Below are positions 4,564 through 60,738 of a stretch of DNA of 64,000 bases, piece after piece. The stretch is taken from the IMG/VR virus record IMGVR_UViG_3300028283_000001; one strand, given 5' to 3'. How positions within the stretch are numbered: position 1 is the first letter of the stretch; every line of letters begins with the position of its first letter. A program made the translations under genes and the position numbers. Source of the stretch: an uncultured virus (IMG/VR IMGVR_UViG_3300028283_000001). Its lineage: Duplodnaviria > Heunggongvirae > Uroviricota > Caudoviricetes. The notes under the pieces are model-generated. The model worked only from the letters and a program-made list of their open reading frames with translations, was not told the origin of the DNA and made no database searches.

Positions 4564-5218
4564 ATGTTCGGTTATATCTGTGATTTATAAAGAATTGGAA
4601 TGGGCAGATACGGAACGGTGCCTGGAGAAGCTGCCAAAAAGATATCCGATTCATTTTGTTGATCGGCGTGGGGTTGGGTCTTTGGCAAAGGCACTAAATT
4701 CCGGATTTAACGCTTGGGCCAATGGGGCAGAGTATGTTTGGTTTGTTACCAATGTTTTGTTTTCCAAACAATGCCTCGATAAATTGGTGCAGCAGATGGA
4801 GCAGACTGGCTACGCCGCTATTTCCCCGGCATTCCAAAGTGATCATCGTTTTTGCCGACCAATTGAAGGTTGCATAGAAACTCGGGAAGCCCCTTTTCTT
4901 GAATTTACTGCGCCGATAGTGCGGGCCGAGGTATTTAAGCAGTTTCCCTTGGATGAGAATATGCCCTACTGGGGGCATGATTTGGATTGGGGGTATAGGG
5001 TGCGGAAGGCTGGGCACAAGTTGGGGGTGTACTACGGGGAGCAGCTTGGTCATGTTTACATTCGCTATGCCTCCACACAAAACAATGATCGGATTACTGC
5101 CCGGCGCTATGAACTGCGGAGAAAGACAAATCAGATGACCCGGATTGCATTGATTGCAAAATACGGAGCAGCGTGGAAGCGGGAACTGATGCAAAAAGAA
5201 AATGAGCATGGGTGCTGA
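4553..5218 (+). CDS. Glycosyltransferase, GT-A fold (GT2-like)
   Basis: SLAKALNSG, LDENMPYWGHDLDWGYRVRKAGHKL, resembling the GT2 'DE.F..Y.ED.D...R....G' motif. Confidence 0.75.
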   Translation: MPNKCSVISVIYKELEWADTERCLEKLPKRYPIHFVDRRGVGSLAKALNSGFNAWANGAEYVWFVTNVLFSKQCLDKLVQQMEQTGYAAISPAFQSDHRFCRPIEGCIETREAPFLEFTAPIVRAEVFKQFPLDENMPYWGHDLDWGYRVRKAGHKLGVYYGEQLGHVYIRYASTQNNDRITARRYELRRKTNQMTRIALIAKYGAAWKRELMQKENEHGC

Positions 5219-5849
5219 TATGAACGCCACGAAAATGAAAGCTATTTATGATGAACTGGTTTTTTGGCAGGAGTTCGTTCAGTGGAATCGTTTTTTAAAG
5301 GGTTGGGTTGGCCGACAAAAAACTCCTGAACTGAATCAGTTTGTGGCGGATTTTATAGTAGGGCAACCACATCATCGAATAATGGATGTGGGATCCGGGG
5401 TGGTTTCAATTTTTCATGGATTAGTTCCAGACGCTACTTTACTCGCTGTGGATCCATTAGGGGATATGTACCGATTGGTTTTTGATTATGATGCTTACGA
5501 TTTAATCCCCCCTATGGCACTATCAGGGGAGGAATTAAAATCTAAAAATGAATTTGACATTGTTCACATGCGTAATGCCATTGACCATACGGACGAGCCG
5601 GGGCTTGTTTATGATAATTTGCTGAATGCGGTGCGGTCGGGGGGGTATCTGATCATCCAGGGCTTTGAACATGAAGGTACTGCAGAACACTACTCAGGGT
5701 TGCATCAATGGGATTGTTACTTGTTGGGGGATGAATTTTGGATTGAAGGCCGGGGCAGAAAAATGCTATTGGGCAAATCCAGTTGCATTGCTAAACGAAT
5801 AAAAACAGAACAGGGGCGGGACTGGTTCATATGGATTGTGCAAAAGTGA
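5202..5849 (+). CDS. Class I SAM-dependent methyltransferase
   Basis: IMDVGSG motif I, AVDPL, FDIVHMRNAIDHTDEP, VRSGGYLII. Confidence 0.85.
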   Translation: MSMGADMNATKMKAIYDELVFWQEFVQWNRFLKGWVGRQKTPELNQFVADFIVGQPHHRIMDVGSGVVSIFHGLVPDATLLAVDPLGDMYRLVFDYDAYDLIPPMALSGEELKSKNEFDIVHMRNAIDHTDEPGLVYDNLLNAVRSGGYLIIQGFEHEGTAEHYSGLHQWDCYLLGDEFWIEGRGRKMLLGKSSCIAKRIKTEQGRDWFIWIVQK

Positions 5850-6565: not shown

Positions 6566-6978
6566 TTTTGATTGATTGCGATGGAGTGTTGACTGACGGT
6601 CGATTAACTATTGACCACCGGGGAGAGAAGCCTTTTAAGCAATTCCACACTCGGGATGTTCGGGCAATCCGGGAGCTTATTTACAACGGGTATGAAGTGG
6701 TGATTGTTTCCGCAGATGATTGGCCCGGTATTTATCATTTTGCAAAGAAGGTGGGGGCGGACGTTTGTATATCCAGAAATAAAGGGGTTTTGCCATATCG
6801 GGATTATATTGCCGTGGGGGACGACTCGTGGGATGTGGAGATGCTCCGCAATGCCCTTCGAGCTTTTTGCCCCAGCGATGCCGATTTTTCAGCCCTGGCA
6901 GTCCCTGGTATTCAACGGCTTGAGGAAGAAGGTGGCAACGGAGTTATTGCCGCCCTGGCAAGGGAGCTGCTACGATGA
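6553..6978 (+). CDS. KdsC/YrbI-like HAD phosphatase
   Basis: ILIDCDGVLTDG motif I, KQFHTRD, AVGDDSWD motif IV, AFCPSDA, GGNGVI; start placed at ATG 6553. Confidence 0.85.
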   Translation: MPKVILIDCDGVLTDGRLTIDHRGEKPFKQFHTRDVRAIRELIYNGYEVVIVSADDWPGIYHFAKKVGADVCISRNKGVLPYRDYIAVGDDSWDVEMLRNALRAFCPSDADFSALAVPGIQRLEEEGGNGVIAALARELLR

Positions 6979-53258: not shown

Positions 53259-53325
53259 TTTGCGCTTGCGGCGTGGTGGAACTGCCTGGAATCATGATCC
53301 AGTTCGAATCTGGGGCAAGCGCAAA
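53259..53325 (+). ncRNA. Degenerate tRNA-like element
   Basis: 11-bp closing stem TTTGCGCTTGC/GCAAGCGCAAA; T-arm CCAG-TTCGAAT-CTGG; CAT-centred 7-nt loop; too short for a canonical tRNA. Confidence 0.45.
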
Positions 53326-53761
53326 ACAAACAGGTCGTAGCATACGGTAATGCCGGAGAGTTGAAATGTATGCAGATCACAGGCCGGAACCTGTTTTATT
53401 GGCAAAGGAGAACTACAATGCAAACCCGACAATTCCACCAATGGCCCCGTAAGGCAGAGGCCCTTACACCGGGGAAAATAAAACGATCCAGCCCTTACAA
53501 CTAAATGGATCACTTCAGCCATAGAGAATTCCAAAGTTCCGGATATCGCTCAATCAGGAGCAGGCAAAGGGAGGATAAATGAACGGGAAAGGCGATGGCA
53601 AAGAACGATTTAAACTATCTTCTATATATTTAAAATAACCTTTATTTTGTTTTACTCGGCTTCGGCTGAAAACTGTAATATTTCTTGTGCGAAAGCCAGC
53701 ACCGTGGAATTCCAGAAACAGGCTTGACGGCCCGGAGAGACGGGCAAAGGAGAACTGAGAA

Positions 53762-53953
53762 ATGGGTCAAGAAATTACAAATAAGATAAATCCTGAAATT
53801 GGGAAAATGAATTGGAAGGCATGCGAATACTGCAAAAACCAGGCCGGCCCAAAAGGTTGCAACTCATTTGCTTGCTTCGAGGATTTAATTGAATACGAAG
53901 AAAAAAATGGAATTATTATTTGTTCTTATTTTGTAGAAAAGGAATTGGCATAA
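53762..53953 (+). CDS. Small Cys-rich hypothetical protein
   Basis: AAGGAG RBS; CEYC..C..C..C. Confidence 0.55.
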   Translation: MGQEITNKINPEIGKMNWKACEYCKNQAGPKGCNSFACFEDLIEYEEKNGIIICSYFVEKELA

Positions 53954-53957
53954 CTTA

Positions 53958-54174
53958 TAGCGGGTGGCGGAATTAGACGCGACCGTCAATTAAGTAGATG
54001 GAGAATGATGCTCCGACACGTTGGAATAATCGACCAGTAGGGAATTGATGATAATGGCTTAGGCTAAGAGTAAACTCACGATGGGTAAAGCCAAGTAGAC
54101 CGAAATGAGACGCCTTGTAAGGGAGATTTTAAACTCTGGGAATCCATTCCAGGTATTGAATCCTGGCTCGCTAT
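53958..54174 (+). ncRNA. RNA with tRNA-like ends and a ~165-nt structured insert
   Basis: Acceptor TAGCGGG/CTCGCTA; U8; D-arm GCG-GAATTAGA-CGC; T-arm CCAGG-TATTGAAT-CCTGG. Confidence 0.55.
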
Positions 54175-58233: not shown

Positions 58234-60738
58234 ATGCTAAAAAATACATTGACTCCACAATTCACTCGTAAATCACGGGTTCAAAATGCTTCTTTCGCCT
58301 CTTCTATTAATGGGGCATTAGGAGAGGGGGATAGAGGCGCTTTTCAACGAGTCCCTGCTATTACTGGAAACCCATACGAATTTCAGAACTATCTTGACCG
58401 CTGGCGGCAGTATTGCCATCTGTATGAAATCTGTTGGGAAGCCCGTAAAATAGTCCGTATCCCTGTGGAGGACGCATTACGAAAAGACTGGGAAATAGAG
58501 AATATTCCAGAGGGGATTACCAAAATACTTCGTAAGGAAGAAAAGAAGTTTAAGTTCCGTGATTCCCTTGCCCGTGCATGGATGCTGGAGCGGTTATTGG
58601 GAGGGTGTATACAGTTTTTTGGCCTGGAGCAGAATACAGATGATGTTTCTAAGCTGTACCAACCATTACTGGGAATGTCAAAGCTGCGGTTTATCAATGT
58701 TATCCCTGTCAGCAGAATCTCCCGTGTAAATTGGGAGACTGACCCCCTGAAGATAGGCTATATGCGGCCTAACGAGTTCATAATTAATGGGCATAATATG
58801 CATATCAGCCGGTGTATTCTGTGGGATGGAGAACCGCTGTTCGACCCATATGATTTCGCTCTTACTCAGTTCAGGGCGAACCTGGCGGGATTTGGGCCCA
58901 GTAAACTTGCTCCTATATGGGATGATATCGTAAAGGCTGTAGGTACCAGGCAGGCTGCATATCAACTTATCCAAACCAATAATGCTCTGATAATGGCCGT
59001 CAGCCAGTTGCAGGATCTTGTGGGGACCAACCCCGGAAAGGCAAAGCTGGCAGAACTAAAAGAGATCACCAAACATTTATCCCTTTATCGAGCGGCCATT
59101 ATAGATAAGGAAAAAGTTACGATTAGTCAGCAGTCCGCAGCCTTTGGCAGTGTTCCGGAATTGCTGATGACATTCTTACAAGTCTTATCGGCCGCTTCCG
59201 ACATACCGGCCACCCGGTTTCTGGGGCAGGCCCCCGGTGGGCTGAACGCCACAGGAGAAAGTGATTTGGAGAATTACTATAATGTGGTGGATGCCATGCA
59301 GCGGCAGAAACTGGAACCTGCCATTCGACAATTTTATGATATCCTCGGGTATCATAAGTGGCCAGACAGCTGGGGGAGAATCCGGGAAGACCTGGAGATC
59401 AAGTTTCCACCCCTTTGGAATATCAATGAGCTGGAAGAAGCACAAAAGAATCAAATCGAGATTGCCAATGTTATGCAGTGTTGGGAAGCGGGGGTTTTGC
59501 CTGATGAAAAGTTGGTTGAGGAGCTTAATCTGAAACAGGTTTTTTCCTGTGACTTGGACGAGAAAGATATTGACCTGATGAAGTCCATGCAGGATGATTC
59601 TGGTTTTTATGGGGCTGATCAGGGGGTTGATTCTTCTGAGGAGAGACGCAGGCAGACTGCTGCGACGCGTTCGGCTGGGGGTCAAGGGGGTTATAAGGGT
59701 GAAGGTGAGGGGGAGAAACCTGCGACCGCTGAGGGGCCACCCCTTAAAAAACCACCTTTGTCTAAAATTGGGAACAAAGCCGAATTTAAAGAAGAAGAAC
59801 ACCCACGGGCTGATGATGGTAAGTTTGGTTCTGGGGCGGGTGAAGCTTCTGTGACAGATAAAAAACCAAAGCCTGCTAAAATGTCTGACGAAGAAAAGAA
59901 TCAACAGAAGGAAGAACAATTTCAAGAGTTGTTGGCGACTAAAAACCCGCATGATCAAGAAGCCTTTAAAAAGGCACAAACATTAGGGATAAATGTTCAG
60001 CCCGCTTGGACAGATGTGTGGGTAAACGATGATCCTAACGCTGATATTTTAGCTTTGGGCCGCGATAAGAAAGGAAAATTGCAATATACCAGGAGTGCAG
60101 CAGCCTCCAAACGGGCTGAAATTAAAAAGTATAACCGCTTACGAGATTTTAGTAATGATTATGCGGGAATTATGAATGCTGTTGATAAAGATTTTTATCG
60201 GTCTGTTGAATCTCAAGTTCTTTATTTGATTAGCAAAACGGGTTTCCGCGTGGGCGGGGAAGAAGGTTCCACGGCGGCTGAAGAGCAAGCATATGGGGCA
60301 TCTACACTGACTTCTGATATGGTGAAGATAGACGGTGATGTTATTCAGTTTACCTTTACGGGTAAGCATGGGGTAAAACAAAATCATTTGTTGACAGACC
60401 CTAAAATGGCCAATTTGCTTCGTCATAAACAGGGACAACTTTTTAACACTAATGATGCAAAAGTTTTAAAGTATATGAAAAAAACAAGCGGTAAGGATTA
60501 CTTGACGAAAGATTTAAGAACTTATGTTGGGACAAAGACCGCCCTGGTTGCAATAGAAAAGATGGACACCCCCGTGGGGGAAAAGGCAATTAAGAAGGCC
60601 ATGATGGAAGTGGCTAAAATTGTGAGCGCTAAATTAGGCAATGCCCCTAAAATGGCGCTTGATAGTTATATTGATCCAATGGTATTTGATCGGTGGAAGG
60701 GGTTAGCTGATGCTACAAAGCAACAACAAAAAGGATGA
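58234..60738 (+). CDS. Portal protein (DUF1073-like) fused to a C-terminal DNA topoisomerase IB domain
   Basis: Portal motifs ARKIV.IP.EDA.R and AASDIP.TRFLGQAPGGLNATGESDLENYY; TopIB motifs PAWTDVW..GRDKKGKLQY, TGFR, YGASTL, FTGKHG, KDLRT, LGN....SYIDP. Confidence 0.9.
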   Translation: MLKNTLTPQFTRKSRVQNASFASSINGALGEGDRGAFQRVPAITGNPYEFQNYLDRWRQYCHLYEICWEARKIVRIPVEDALRKDWEIENIPEGITKILRKEEKKFKFRDSLARAWMLERLLGGCIQFFGLEQNTDDVSKLYQPLLGMSKLRFINVIPVSRISRVNWETDPLKIGYMRPNEFIINGHNMHISRCILWDGEPLFDPYDFALTQFRANLAGFGPSKLAPIWDDIVKAVGTRQAAYQLIQTNNALIMAVSQLQDLVGTNPGKAKLAELKEITKHLSLYRAAIIDKEKVTISQQSAAFGSVPELLMTFLQVLSAASDIPATRFLGQAPGGLNATGESDLENYYNVVDAMQRQKLEPAIRQFYDILGYHKWPDSWGRIREDLEIKFPPLWNINELEEAQKNQIEIANVMQCWEAGVLPDEKLVEELNLKQVFSCDLDEKDIDLMKSMQDDSGFYGADQGVDSSEERRRQTAATRSAGGQGGYKGEGEGEKPATAEGPPLKKPPLSKIGNKAEFKEEEHPRADDGKFGSGAGEASVTDKKPKPAKMSDEEKNQQKEEQFQELLATKNPHDQEAFKKAQTLGINVQPAWTDVWVNDDPNADILALGRDKKGKLQYTRSAAASKRAEIKKYNRLRDFSNDYAGIMNAVDKDFYRSVESQVLYLISKTGFRVGGEEGSTAAEEQAYGASTLTSDMVKIDGDVIQFTFTGKHGVKQNHLLTDPKMANLLRHKQGQLFNTNDAKVLKYMKKTSGKDYLTKDLRTYVGTKTALVAIEKMDTPVGEKAIKKAMMEVAKIVSAKLGNAPKMALDSYIDPMVFDRWKGLADATKQQQKG
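59645..59700 (+). repeat. Dispersed element core, copy D (in the portal-TopIB linker)
   Basis: GACGCAGGCAGACTGCTGCGACGCGTTCGGC followed by GGGGTTATAAGGG. Confidence 0.9.

What the first reader, a model, noticed from the sequence alone, without database searches (positions are those of the whole stretch)
53958..54174. 217-nt RNA with tRNA acceptor, D and T arms and a large structured insert in place of the anticodon arm
Seen: acceptor TAGCGGG/CTCGCTA, U8, a Leu/Ser-type D-arm and a T-arm with an atypical 8-nt loop enclose about 165 nt containing further helices (CGTCAATT/AATTGATG, GGAG/CTCC, TGGCTT/AAGCCA, GAG-TAAA-CTC). It has no G3:U70 pair and is shorter than tmRNA. Inference: a tRNA scaffold that uses RNase P/Z processing to release and stabilise a novel ncRNA, or a decoy for host anticodon nucleases.
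Basis: partly seen in the sequence, partly recalled or inferred. Interest (0 to 1): 0.7.

Follow-up and report, generated by a model that had tools for sequence, protein, structure and literature searches.

The report
Anticodon-less leucine-tRNA frame with swappable insert
A lake phage carries an RNA gene that keeps the outer frame of a leucine tRNA but holds a 168-base insert where the codon-reading arm should be; many phages carry the same frame with different, exchangeable inserts, and what these RNAs do is not known.

Summary
The frame is real: 53958-54173 (+) has a 7-bp acceptor, a tRNA-Leu D-arm lacking G18-G19-U20, U48 and a T-arm with an 8-nt loop around a 168-nt insert. It is not a tRNA, tmRNA, intron-split tRNA or Rfam member. 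The frame is conserved, the insert is not: I collected 85 elbow-less frames (this class) and 88 elbow-intact ones; their 173 inserts fall into 155 clusters. Close relatives carry an unrelated 83-87-nt insert in the same slot, and two insert types occur in both frame classes. No homolog of this insert was found, so its helices are predictions only. Elbow-intact frames keep U-1 and A73-C74; this class does not, which weakens the RNase P/CCA reading. Anticodon-like loops are not enriched, which speaks against an anticodon-nuclease decoy. Nearest known: T5 RNA1 (annotated tRNA-like, function unknown) and Rfam manA, which appears to be a divergent version of the frame. Best guess: a non-decoding chassis presenting exchangeable RNA payloads (0.45). 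Expression of this element was not shown. The scan found this family before on other DNA; the notes I saw did not mention the elbow-less class as a set, or manA.

The parts
53958..54173 (+). Whole element (216 nt): tRNA-Leu-derived frame of the elbow-less class with a 168-nt insert
   Evidence: model R1 39.7 bits, E 1.7e-7; ARAGORN and Rfam negative
53958..53964 (+). Acceptor stem, 5' strand
   Evidence: pairs 7 of 7 with 54167-54173; same strand in relatives L001, L191, L192
53965..53980 (+). U8, G9 and Leu-type D-arm lacking G18-G19-U20
   Evidence: family consensus recovered independently from a T-arm-only search; compare canonical tRNA-Leu in L268
53981..54148 (+). Insert replacing anticodon and variable arms; ends in U48; no homolog found
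   Evidence: best match among 172 other inserts not significant, 28 of 200 shuffles
53984..54050 (+). Predicted insert domain 1 (closing helix 53984-53991 / 54043-54050)
   Evidence: constrained fold, pairing probability 0.85-0.90; prediction only
54055..54093 (+). Predicted insert domain 2 (closing helix 54055-54060 / 54088-54093)
   Evidence: pairing probability 0.75-0.93; prediction only
54137..54146 (+). 3-bp hairpin ending 2 nt before the T-stem, the position of the variable-arm stem in the family
   Evidence: probability 0.46-0.63; family-level geometry 38 of 72 against 21.5% of shuffles
54149..54166 (+). T-arm with non-canonical 8-nt loop
   Evidence: 8-nt loops in 36 of 62 distinct frames
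54167..54174 (+). Acceptor 3' strand and U discriminator; followed by a short U run, no CCA
53730..53745 (+). 5-bp hairpin with a 6-nt purine loop; lies about 8 nt before the frame in relatives and within 300 nt upstream of 21 of 173 frames (0 on the opposite strand)
53762..53953 (+). 63-aa ORF without PHROG match, lying between the hairpin and the frame; absent from relatives
   Evidence: joint 53742->53947 in DNA run X2
53262..53322 (+). Element A: a different tRNA-like frame (8-bp closing stem, canonical T-loop), 61 nt here and 131 nt with another inside in L001
   Evidence: not hit by R1
53330..53394 (+). Element B: closed by the same terminal stem as in L001 but with a different inside
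   Evidence: not hit by R1

Best explanation
The element is the gene for a non-decoding RNA of a widespread phage family: a chassis derived from tRNA-Leu (acceptor, D-stem, U8-A14 and A15-U48 core, variable-arm stem, T-arm) whose anticodon and variable arms are replaced by a folded payload. SHOWN: the frame, its conservation as structure, the loss of the anticodon arm, two frame classes, and payloads that differ wholesale between close relatives and recur in different frames. INFERRED: (1) tRNA-Leu is the donor, and suits the role because bacterial LeuRS does not read the anticodon (recalled), so the ancestor could lose that arm and still be handled as a tRNA; (2) payloads move between frames by recombination in the short conserved D-arm and T-arm ends; (3) the frame folds independently, protects the ends and presents the payload; (4) the payload is the business end and binds a host protein or RNA during infection (take-over or counter-defence), which would explain its turnover. 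This element is of the derived elbow-less class, probably uncharged and possibly not matured by RNase P and CCA addition; its 3' end may come from termination or exonuclease trimming up to the acceptor stem.
For: 73 of 92 D-arm pattern matches (91 viral loci plus the window) close into the frame, 62 distinct, null 1 of 1240; 7 of 43 matches in genomes do, in five phyla by record title. Acceptor pairs vary freely in sequence yet stay paired: 99.3% of cells, covariation 0.68 against 0.155 (rows were selected for pairing, so the shuffle null is the independent test). A T-arm-only search gives back the GG-less D-arm in 21 distinct frames from 58 matches. A helix ends 2 nt before the T-stem in 38 of 72 elbow-less and 33 of 81 elbow-intact inserts against about 21.5% of shuffles (P 2.6e-9, 8.8e-6). 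173 inserts form 155 clusters, 139 singletons; 41 frames with one acceptor sequence carry 38 insert types; two insert types are shared between the classes under different acceptors. Relatives 77-93% identical in the flanks have an unrelated 83-87-nt insert between the same ends. In 8 groups of homologous inserts RNAalifold helices show 30 compensatory, 9 one-sided and 4 broken pairs (alifold favours such pairs). T5 RNA1, annotated as a stable tRNA-like RNA, has the same plan.
Against: No transcript, end or binding partner of this element was shown. Its insert has no homolog, folds no better than shuffles and has only a weak variable-arm stem. Family inserts are only modestly more stable than shuffles (median z -0.6; 26 of 64 below -1). 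No neighbouring protein family recurs in more than two loci and 150 of 192 neighbours scanned in Pfam show no common partner. The elbow-less class lacks the U-1 and A73-C74 signature. Two of ten groups aligned gave no common structure. Payload turnover could also be tolerated drift inside a frame kept for another reason.
Confidence: 0.45

Rival explanations
1. Cis element: the frame stays in, or punctuates, the long phage transcript, acting as a processing site, 3' stabiliser or 5'-leader regulator of neighbouring genes (the role proposed for manA); the insert is a sensor or tolerated filler.
For: Elbow-less frames lack the marks of tRNA maturation and more often have a U-rich tail (20 of 85 against 4 of 88); 47 of 73 loci have no tRNA gene nearby; here an ORF with a ribosome-binding site starts 30 nt downstream; manA was described in potential 5' UTRs (PMC2864571).
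Against: No fixed distance to a downstream gene (start within 60 nt in 19 of 78, median 109 nt); downstream genes are unrelated; manA of S-CREM1 sits between two tRNA genes; frames occur in tandem in 13 of 100 loci.
Confidence: 0.25
2. The frame itself is the active part: a tRNA-body mimic that titrates a host tRNA-binding factor (synthetase, EF-Tu, T-box, a toxin that reads the tRNA body); inserts only need to fold out of the way.
For: Frame conserved while inserts are 21-230 nt and unrelated; minimal frames with 21-nt inserts exist (L056, L065, L175); the elbow-intact class keeps A73 (75 of 88).
Against: Acceptor sequence and discriminator are free in this class (A73 35 of 85), so no aminoacylation identity is kept; homologous inserts keep their own helices; one frame would suffice, yet tandem frames carry different inserts.
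Confidence: 0.17
3. Functionless or selfish: decayed tRNA-Leu genes whose conserved ends act as recombination handles and collect stray RNA pieces.
For: Canonical T-arms of other tRNAs are nested in 4 of 80 inserts against 0.08 expected; this insert shows no folding signal; region is a mosaic hot spot.
Against: Acceptor stems stay paired through free sequence change; loss of the D-loop GG goes with a recurring alternative T-loop (canonical loop in only 4 of 62) instead of random decay; variable-arm geometry is kept.
Confidence: 0.1
4. Intron-split tRNA, tmRNA-like rescue RNA, or anticodon-nuclease decoy.
For: A tag-like frame (GIDDNGLG then stop) lies at 54041-54067; length is near that of small group I introns.
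Against: No Rfam hit; group I core words in 0 of 173 inserts and no tested excision restores an anticodon arm; G3:U70 in 1 of 173 frames; anticodon-like hairpins at chance; the PARIS nuclease AriB recognises the anticodon stem-loop (PMC11464382), which is absent.
Confidence: 0.03

Closest known systems
Phage T5 RNA1 (NC_005859 30501-30644, annotated 'tRNA-like stable RNA with unknown functions')
   Same: tRNA-Leu D-arm, no anticodon arm, large insert, variable-arm stem ending 2 nt before a T-arm; hit by model R1 at 23.6 bits, E 6e-4.
   Different: RNA1 keeps G18G19 and a canonical T-loop (elbow-intact class), 144 nt, unrelated insert, lies in a tRNA array. I saw only the record's annotation, not the original papers. 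T5 RNA2 was not hit by R1.
manA RNA motif (Rfam RF01745; Weinberg et al. 2010, PMC2864571)
   Same: Its consensus and seed rows show acceptor-like stem, U8-G9, a D-arm beginning like this family's and lacking G18G19, a helix ending 2 nt before a 5-bp T-stem, and a T-loop with the same first and last bases. The manA model hits family members weakly: L210 44.3 bits (gathering 55.2), L203 24.1, L052 23.8, L078 23.4.
   Different: manA has a 5-bp acceptor (75 of 93 closed loci), a hairpin inside the D-loop, a 10-12-nt T-loop and a largely shared core; it was described as a cis-regulatory riboswitch candidate. The window's element gets no manA hit, and R1 hits only 2 of 40 manA-pattern loci (E 0.035) and not S-CREM1 manA. 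Relationship inferred, about 0.75.
Canonical bacterial tRNA-Leu (class II)
   Same: D-arm sequence, A15/U48, variable-arm geometry, 7/5 acceptor branch; R1 scores S-CREM1 tRNA-Leu 33.4 bits.
   Different: No anticodon arm, no G18G19, no canonical T-loop, U73.
Phage T4 RNA C and RNA D (rnaC, rnaD)
   Same: Small stable RNAs of a phage tRNA region, function unknown (PMC3014915, PMC9697503); rnaC ends in a canonical T-arm.
   Different: Not hit by R1; no Leu D-arm; analogy only.
Allo-tRNAs and polycistronic irregular tRNAs (Mukai et al., PMC5389517)
   Same: Irregular tRNA-like RNAs with extra stems, some charged but not used in translation.
   Different: 8/4 or 9/3 acceptor branch and retained anticodon arms; this frame is 7/5 without an anticodon arm.

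Membership tests
tRNA-Leu | Detected as tRNA by ARAGORN or Rfam RF00005 | tested here: not met
tRNA-Leu | 5-bp anticodon stem with 7-nt loop after position 26 | tested here: not met
   0 of 85 elbow-less frames, window included
tRNA-Leu | G18G19 and canonical T-loop | tested here: not met
tRNA-Leu | A73 discriminator (identity rule recalled) | tested here: not met
   U at 54174; A73 in 35 of 85 of this class
tRNA-Leu | Leu-type D-stem, A14, A15 and U48 | tested here: met
   U48 was part of my frame score, so its invariance is not independent
tmRNA | G3:U70 and Rfam tmRNA match | tested here: not met
   G3-C70
tmRNA | Internal tag reading frame | tested here: inconclusive
   8-codon tag-like frame at 54041-54067; no homolog to test conservation
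Group I intron-containing tRNA | Catalytic core motifs and an anticodon arm restored by excision | tested here: not met
   no Rfam hit; 0 of 173 inserts with three recalled core words; 0 restoring excisions among those tried
manA (RF01745) | Score at or above gathering 55.2 bits | tested here: not met
   no hit at E up to 10
manA (RF01745) | 5-bp closing stem and hairpin inside the D-loop | tested here: not met
   7-bp acceptor, minimal D-loop
manA (RF01745) | U8-G9, GG-less D-arm start, helix ending 2 nt before T-stem, U-A...A-A-U T-loop | tested here: met
   read from alignments; bridging locus L210
T5 RNA1-like anticodon-less tRNA-Leu RNAs | Leu frame with insert in place of the anticodon arm | tested here: met
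T5 RNA1-like anticodon-less tRNA-Leu RNAs | Intact elbow | tested here: not met
T5 RNA1-like anticodon-less tRNA-Leu RNAs | Accumulates as a discrete stable RNA | not testable with these tools
   only assembled contigs of RNA runs were available
Allo-tRNA | 8/4 or 9/3 acceptor branch | tested here: not met
   7/5; definition from PMC5389517
Bacterial Y RNA (YrlA; features recalled) | Circularly permuted tRNA domain next to a Ro60/TROVE gene | tested here: not met
   ends pair as the acceptor; no TROVE among 150 of 192 neighbouring ORFs

The most novel reading that the evidence does not exclude
Phages keep a natural RNA display system: a tRNA-Leu chassis, in a chargeable and an elbow-less version, into which folded RNA payloads are swapped by recombination and selected as aptamer-like effectors against host factors; T5 RNA1 and manA are two long-known members whose common plan was missed.
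Probability: 0.25. Interest if true: 0.9.

Novelty: new variant of a known kind. Interest (0 to 1): 0.65.

Why it matters
These genes are invisible to standard tRNA and Rfam annotation (ARAGORN called 1 of 88 elbow-intact frames) yet are common in phages and prophages of several phyla. Seeing them as one family gives a handle on the decades-old question of what the 'stable RNAs of unknown function' in phage tRNA regions do, suggests that the riboswitch candidate manA is a remodelled tRNA-Leu, and supplies lab systems (T5, SPP1, S-CREM1, a Sphingobacterium prophage). If payloads are effectors, this is a large unexplored set of phage RNA weapons and a natural version of the tRNA scaffold used in RNA engineering.

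Tried and rejected
No whole genome is held for the window. BLASTN of the element against phages and plasmids: chance hits only. T-arm 16-mer of the window in viral contigs: 49 loci, none used; they look like chance matches. Promoter and terminator scan at chance level. Guide or spacer idea: inserts have no significant match in the window or in their own genomes (three genomes, two inserts, plus four inserts against the window). Multi-anticodon decoy idea: rejected. A 26-column likeness between this insert and L184: not significant. A 13-nt word shared by L001 and L002 inserts: about 0.4 such matches expected, set aside. FuFi-1 (RF02986) hit in L286: chance pattern match, no frame. snoRNA hits at E 0.4-5: chance. 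Partner protein: none. T4 rnaC/rnaD: not hit by R1. L144 (terminase 69% identical) has an apparently ordinary tRNA-like gene instead, no R1 hit. Dropped rows: 19 of 92 D-arm matches did not close at first (4 of them were added with a wider loop range, 2 more closures were left out as doubtful); 36 of 43 genome matches did not close; 15 of 58 T-arm matches had no acceptor and those with D-arm identity under 9 of 16 were not counted; 19 of 119 elbow-intact matches did not close; near-duplicate inserts (6 ids) and inserts under 45 nt were removed.

Full report
1. Observation. The window is a tailed-phage genome segment: UvsX/RecA-like recombinase, terminase small and large subunits by PHROG; the terminase is at most about 35% identical to named phages among the rows shown. 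Runs holding most of the stretch are lake-water metagenomes. ARAGORN and Rfam find nothing in the window, and relaxed Rfam scans give only chance snoRNA hits. The described frame is there: acceptor 53958-53964/54167-54173, U8, D-stem, T-arm 54149-54166 with an 8-nt loop, U at 54174, no CCA.

2. The frame is the conserved unit. A 21-base pattern over acceptor and D-arm found two viral contigs with the same ends and different insides. A 17-base degenerate D-arm pattern gave 91 viral loci; with the window, 73 of 92 matches close into a 7-bp acceptor plus T-arm (62 distinct), against 1 of 1240 shuffles. In one-per-species genomes 7 of 43 matches close: two Sphingobacterium, Saprospiraceae, two Bacillota, Sericytochromatia, Leptolyngbya; the S. 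zeae copy follows a portal gene among tRNA genes. A T-arm-only pattern returned the same GG-less D-arm in 21 distinct frames from 58 matches, so the D-arm conservation is not an artefact of the query. In an alignment of 40 frames 99.3% of cells pair and 10 of 15 pairs change on both sides (rows were chosen for pairing). The model built from it (R1) finds the window's element, which was not in training, at E 1.7e-7, and canonical tRNA-Leu at 33.4 bits: the D-arm is that of tRNA-Leu minus G18-G19-U20. An archaeal-host virus record (vir555, host given as Methanomicrobiales) also has a frame.

3. Two classes. R1 found further frames beside the query frame in 13 of 100 loci; most of these keep the D-loop GG and a canonical T-loop yet also lack the anticodon arm. 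A targeted scan gave 88 distinct elbow-intact frames from 119 matches (scan truncated). They keep A73 (75 of 88), A73-C74 (67 of 88) and U-1 (66 of 87 against 36 at -2), marks expected of RNase P, CCA-adding enzyme and LeuRS substrates (rules recalled). The 85 elbow-less frames, to which the finding belongs, do not (35, 11 and 41 of 85); only 4 of 62 have a canonical T-loop. A canonical anticodon arm is present in 1 of 88 and 0 of 85. Some members carry extra hairpins in the D-loop or T-loop.

4. The inserts. They span 21-230 nt; 173 inserts form 155 clusters. A helix ending 2 nt before the T-stem, the geometry of the class II variable arm, is enriched in both classes; no such signal marks the anticodon-arm side (17 of 72 against 17.9%, P 0.47). 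Homologous inserts mostly keep their helices through compensatory change. They are exchanged as units: relatives L001/L190, L191 and L192, 77-93% identical in flanking stretches, have the same acceptor and T-stem but an unrelated 83-87-nt insert; L193 matches the window over the stretch printed and is not independent; a DNA run shows a joint from 53980 to 54148 with other sequence between, as expected from such relatives (short side 29 bases). Inserts of L067/L392 and L131/L428 are 80-84% identical although frame class and acceptor differ; L105 and vir555 share an insert but differ in T-loop type. Four of 80 inserts hold a canonical T-arm (0.08 expected), anticodon-like hairpins are at chance, GNRA hairpins slightly above (26 against 16). 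No match to the own genome, no partner protein, no intron or tmRNA features.

5. Surroundings. Two more frames of other kinds lie upstream (A 53262-53322, B 53330-53394) with conserved ends and different insides in L001. A hairpin that precedes 21 of 173 frames lies at 53730-53745; here a 63-aa ORF separates it from the frame. Contigs of RNA libraries from three studies cover 53272-53601, including a relative's versions of A and B; this is a weak hint of transcription of the cluster, since such libraries can hold DNA. Nothing shows expression of the finding itself.

6. Known relatives. T5 RNA1 has the elbow-intact plan and is annotated as a tRNA-like stable RNA of unknown function; this lead and SPP1 came from earlier notes of the scan and I checked both: SPP1 6647-6755 scores 42.4 bits and Bacteroides phage BS-TP2 56.9. 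A weak manA hit on one member led to the manA consensus and seed, which show the same frame with a 5-bp acceptor, a D-loop hairpin and a longer T-loop; L210 is intermediate. The link is not reciprocal by model score, so it is an inference and the element is not a manA member.

7. Literature. Ten searches found no description of the family or of manA as tRNA-derived; the library lacks most subscription papers, including the original T5 and T4 RNA work. Seen: PMC5389517 (passages, section 16); PMC2864571 (passages; parts 119-120 of one supplement; its Additional files 1 and 3, which discuss each motif, could not be read and may mention a tRNA likeness of manA); PMC9964418, PMC5737381, PMC3014915, PMC9697503, PMC11464382 (passages); PMC6316719 (term search: 'tRNA' 0 times). 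Identity rules of LeuRS, RNase P, tmRNA and Y RNA are recalled.

8. Mechanism and verdict. Shown: a conserved, non-decoding tRNA-Leu frame in two states with exchangeable folded inserts. Inferred: a chassis that protects and presents a payload acting on a host factor (0.45); rivals are a cis processing or regulatory element (0.25), a tRNA-body mimic (0.17), functionless cassettes (0.10), intron, tmRNA or anticodon decoy (0.03). New variant of a known but uncharacterised kind; interest 0.65.

Noticed in passing
window 53262-53394 and 53515-53601: Elements A and B and a conserved stretch after them are covered by contigs of three RNA libraries (53272-53601); relatives swap the insides of A and B too. 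They are not hit by the tRNA-Leu frame model and may be other chassis types.
   Followed up: partly
window 53730-53745: Recurrent 5-bp hairpin with a purine-rich 6-nt loop directly before many frames (15 of 88 elbow-intact, 6 of 85 elbow-less, none on the opposite strand); perhaps a leader or processing signal.
   Followed up: partly
L267 about 1505-1575 (Prevotella phage Lak-B2): T-arm of the elbow-less type followed by an acceptor-like stem closed by a loop and then a manA-type D-arm start: looks like a circularly permuted frame.
   Followed up: no
L266 1999-2164 (vir555): Frame lies inside an annotated hypothetical CDS of a virus assigned to Methanomicrobiales; the CDS call may be wrong.
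   Followed up: partly
L268 1216-1430 (S-CREM1 manA): manA lies between tRNA-Leu and tRNA-Asn with no protein gene directly downstream, which fits a tRNA-like RNA better than a 5' UTR element.
   Followed up: partly
L184 1200-2770 (Leptolyngbya): The longest insert (230 nt) follows an RNA ligase gene (PF09414); seen in one locus only.
   Followed up: no
L090 111-452, L099 1537-1830: Acb2/Tad1-like and Tad2-like anti-defence domains next to frames in 2 of the loci scanned; too few to call an association.
   Followed up: no
window 58234-60738: The 834-aa portal-like ORF seems to carry a C-terminal domain resembling a type IB topoisomerase (by eye, not tested).
   Followed up: no
L144 about 5205-5285: The relative with 69% terminase identity has a tRNA-Tyr-like gene before the small terminase where this phage has its RNA cluster further upstream.
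   Followed up: no
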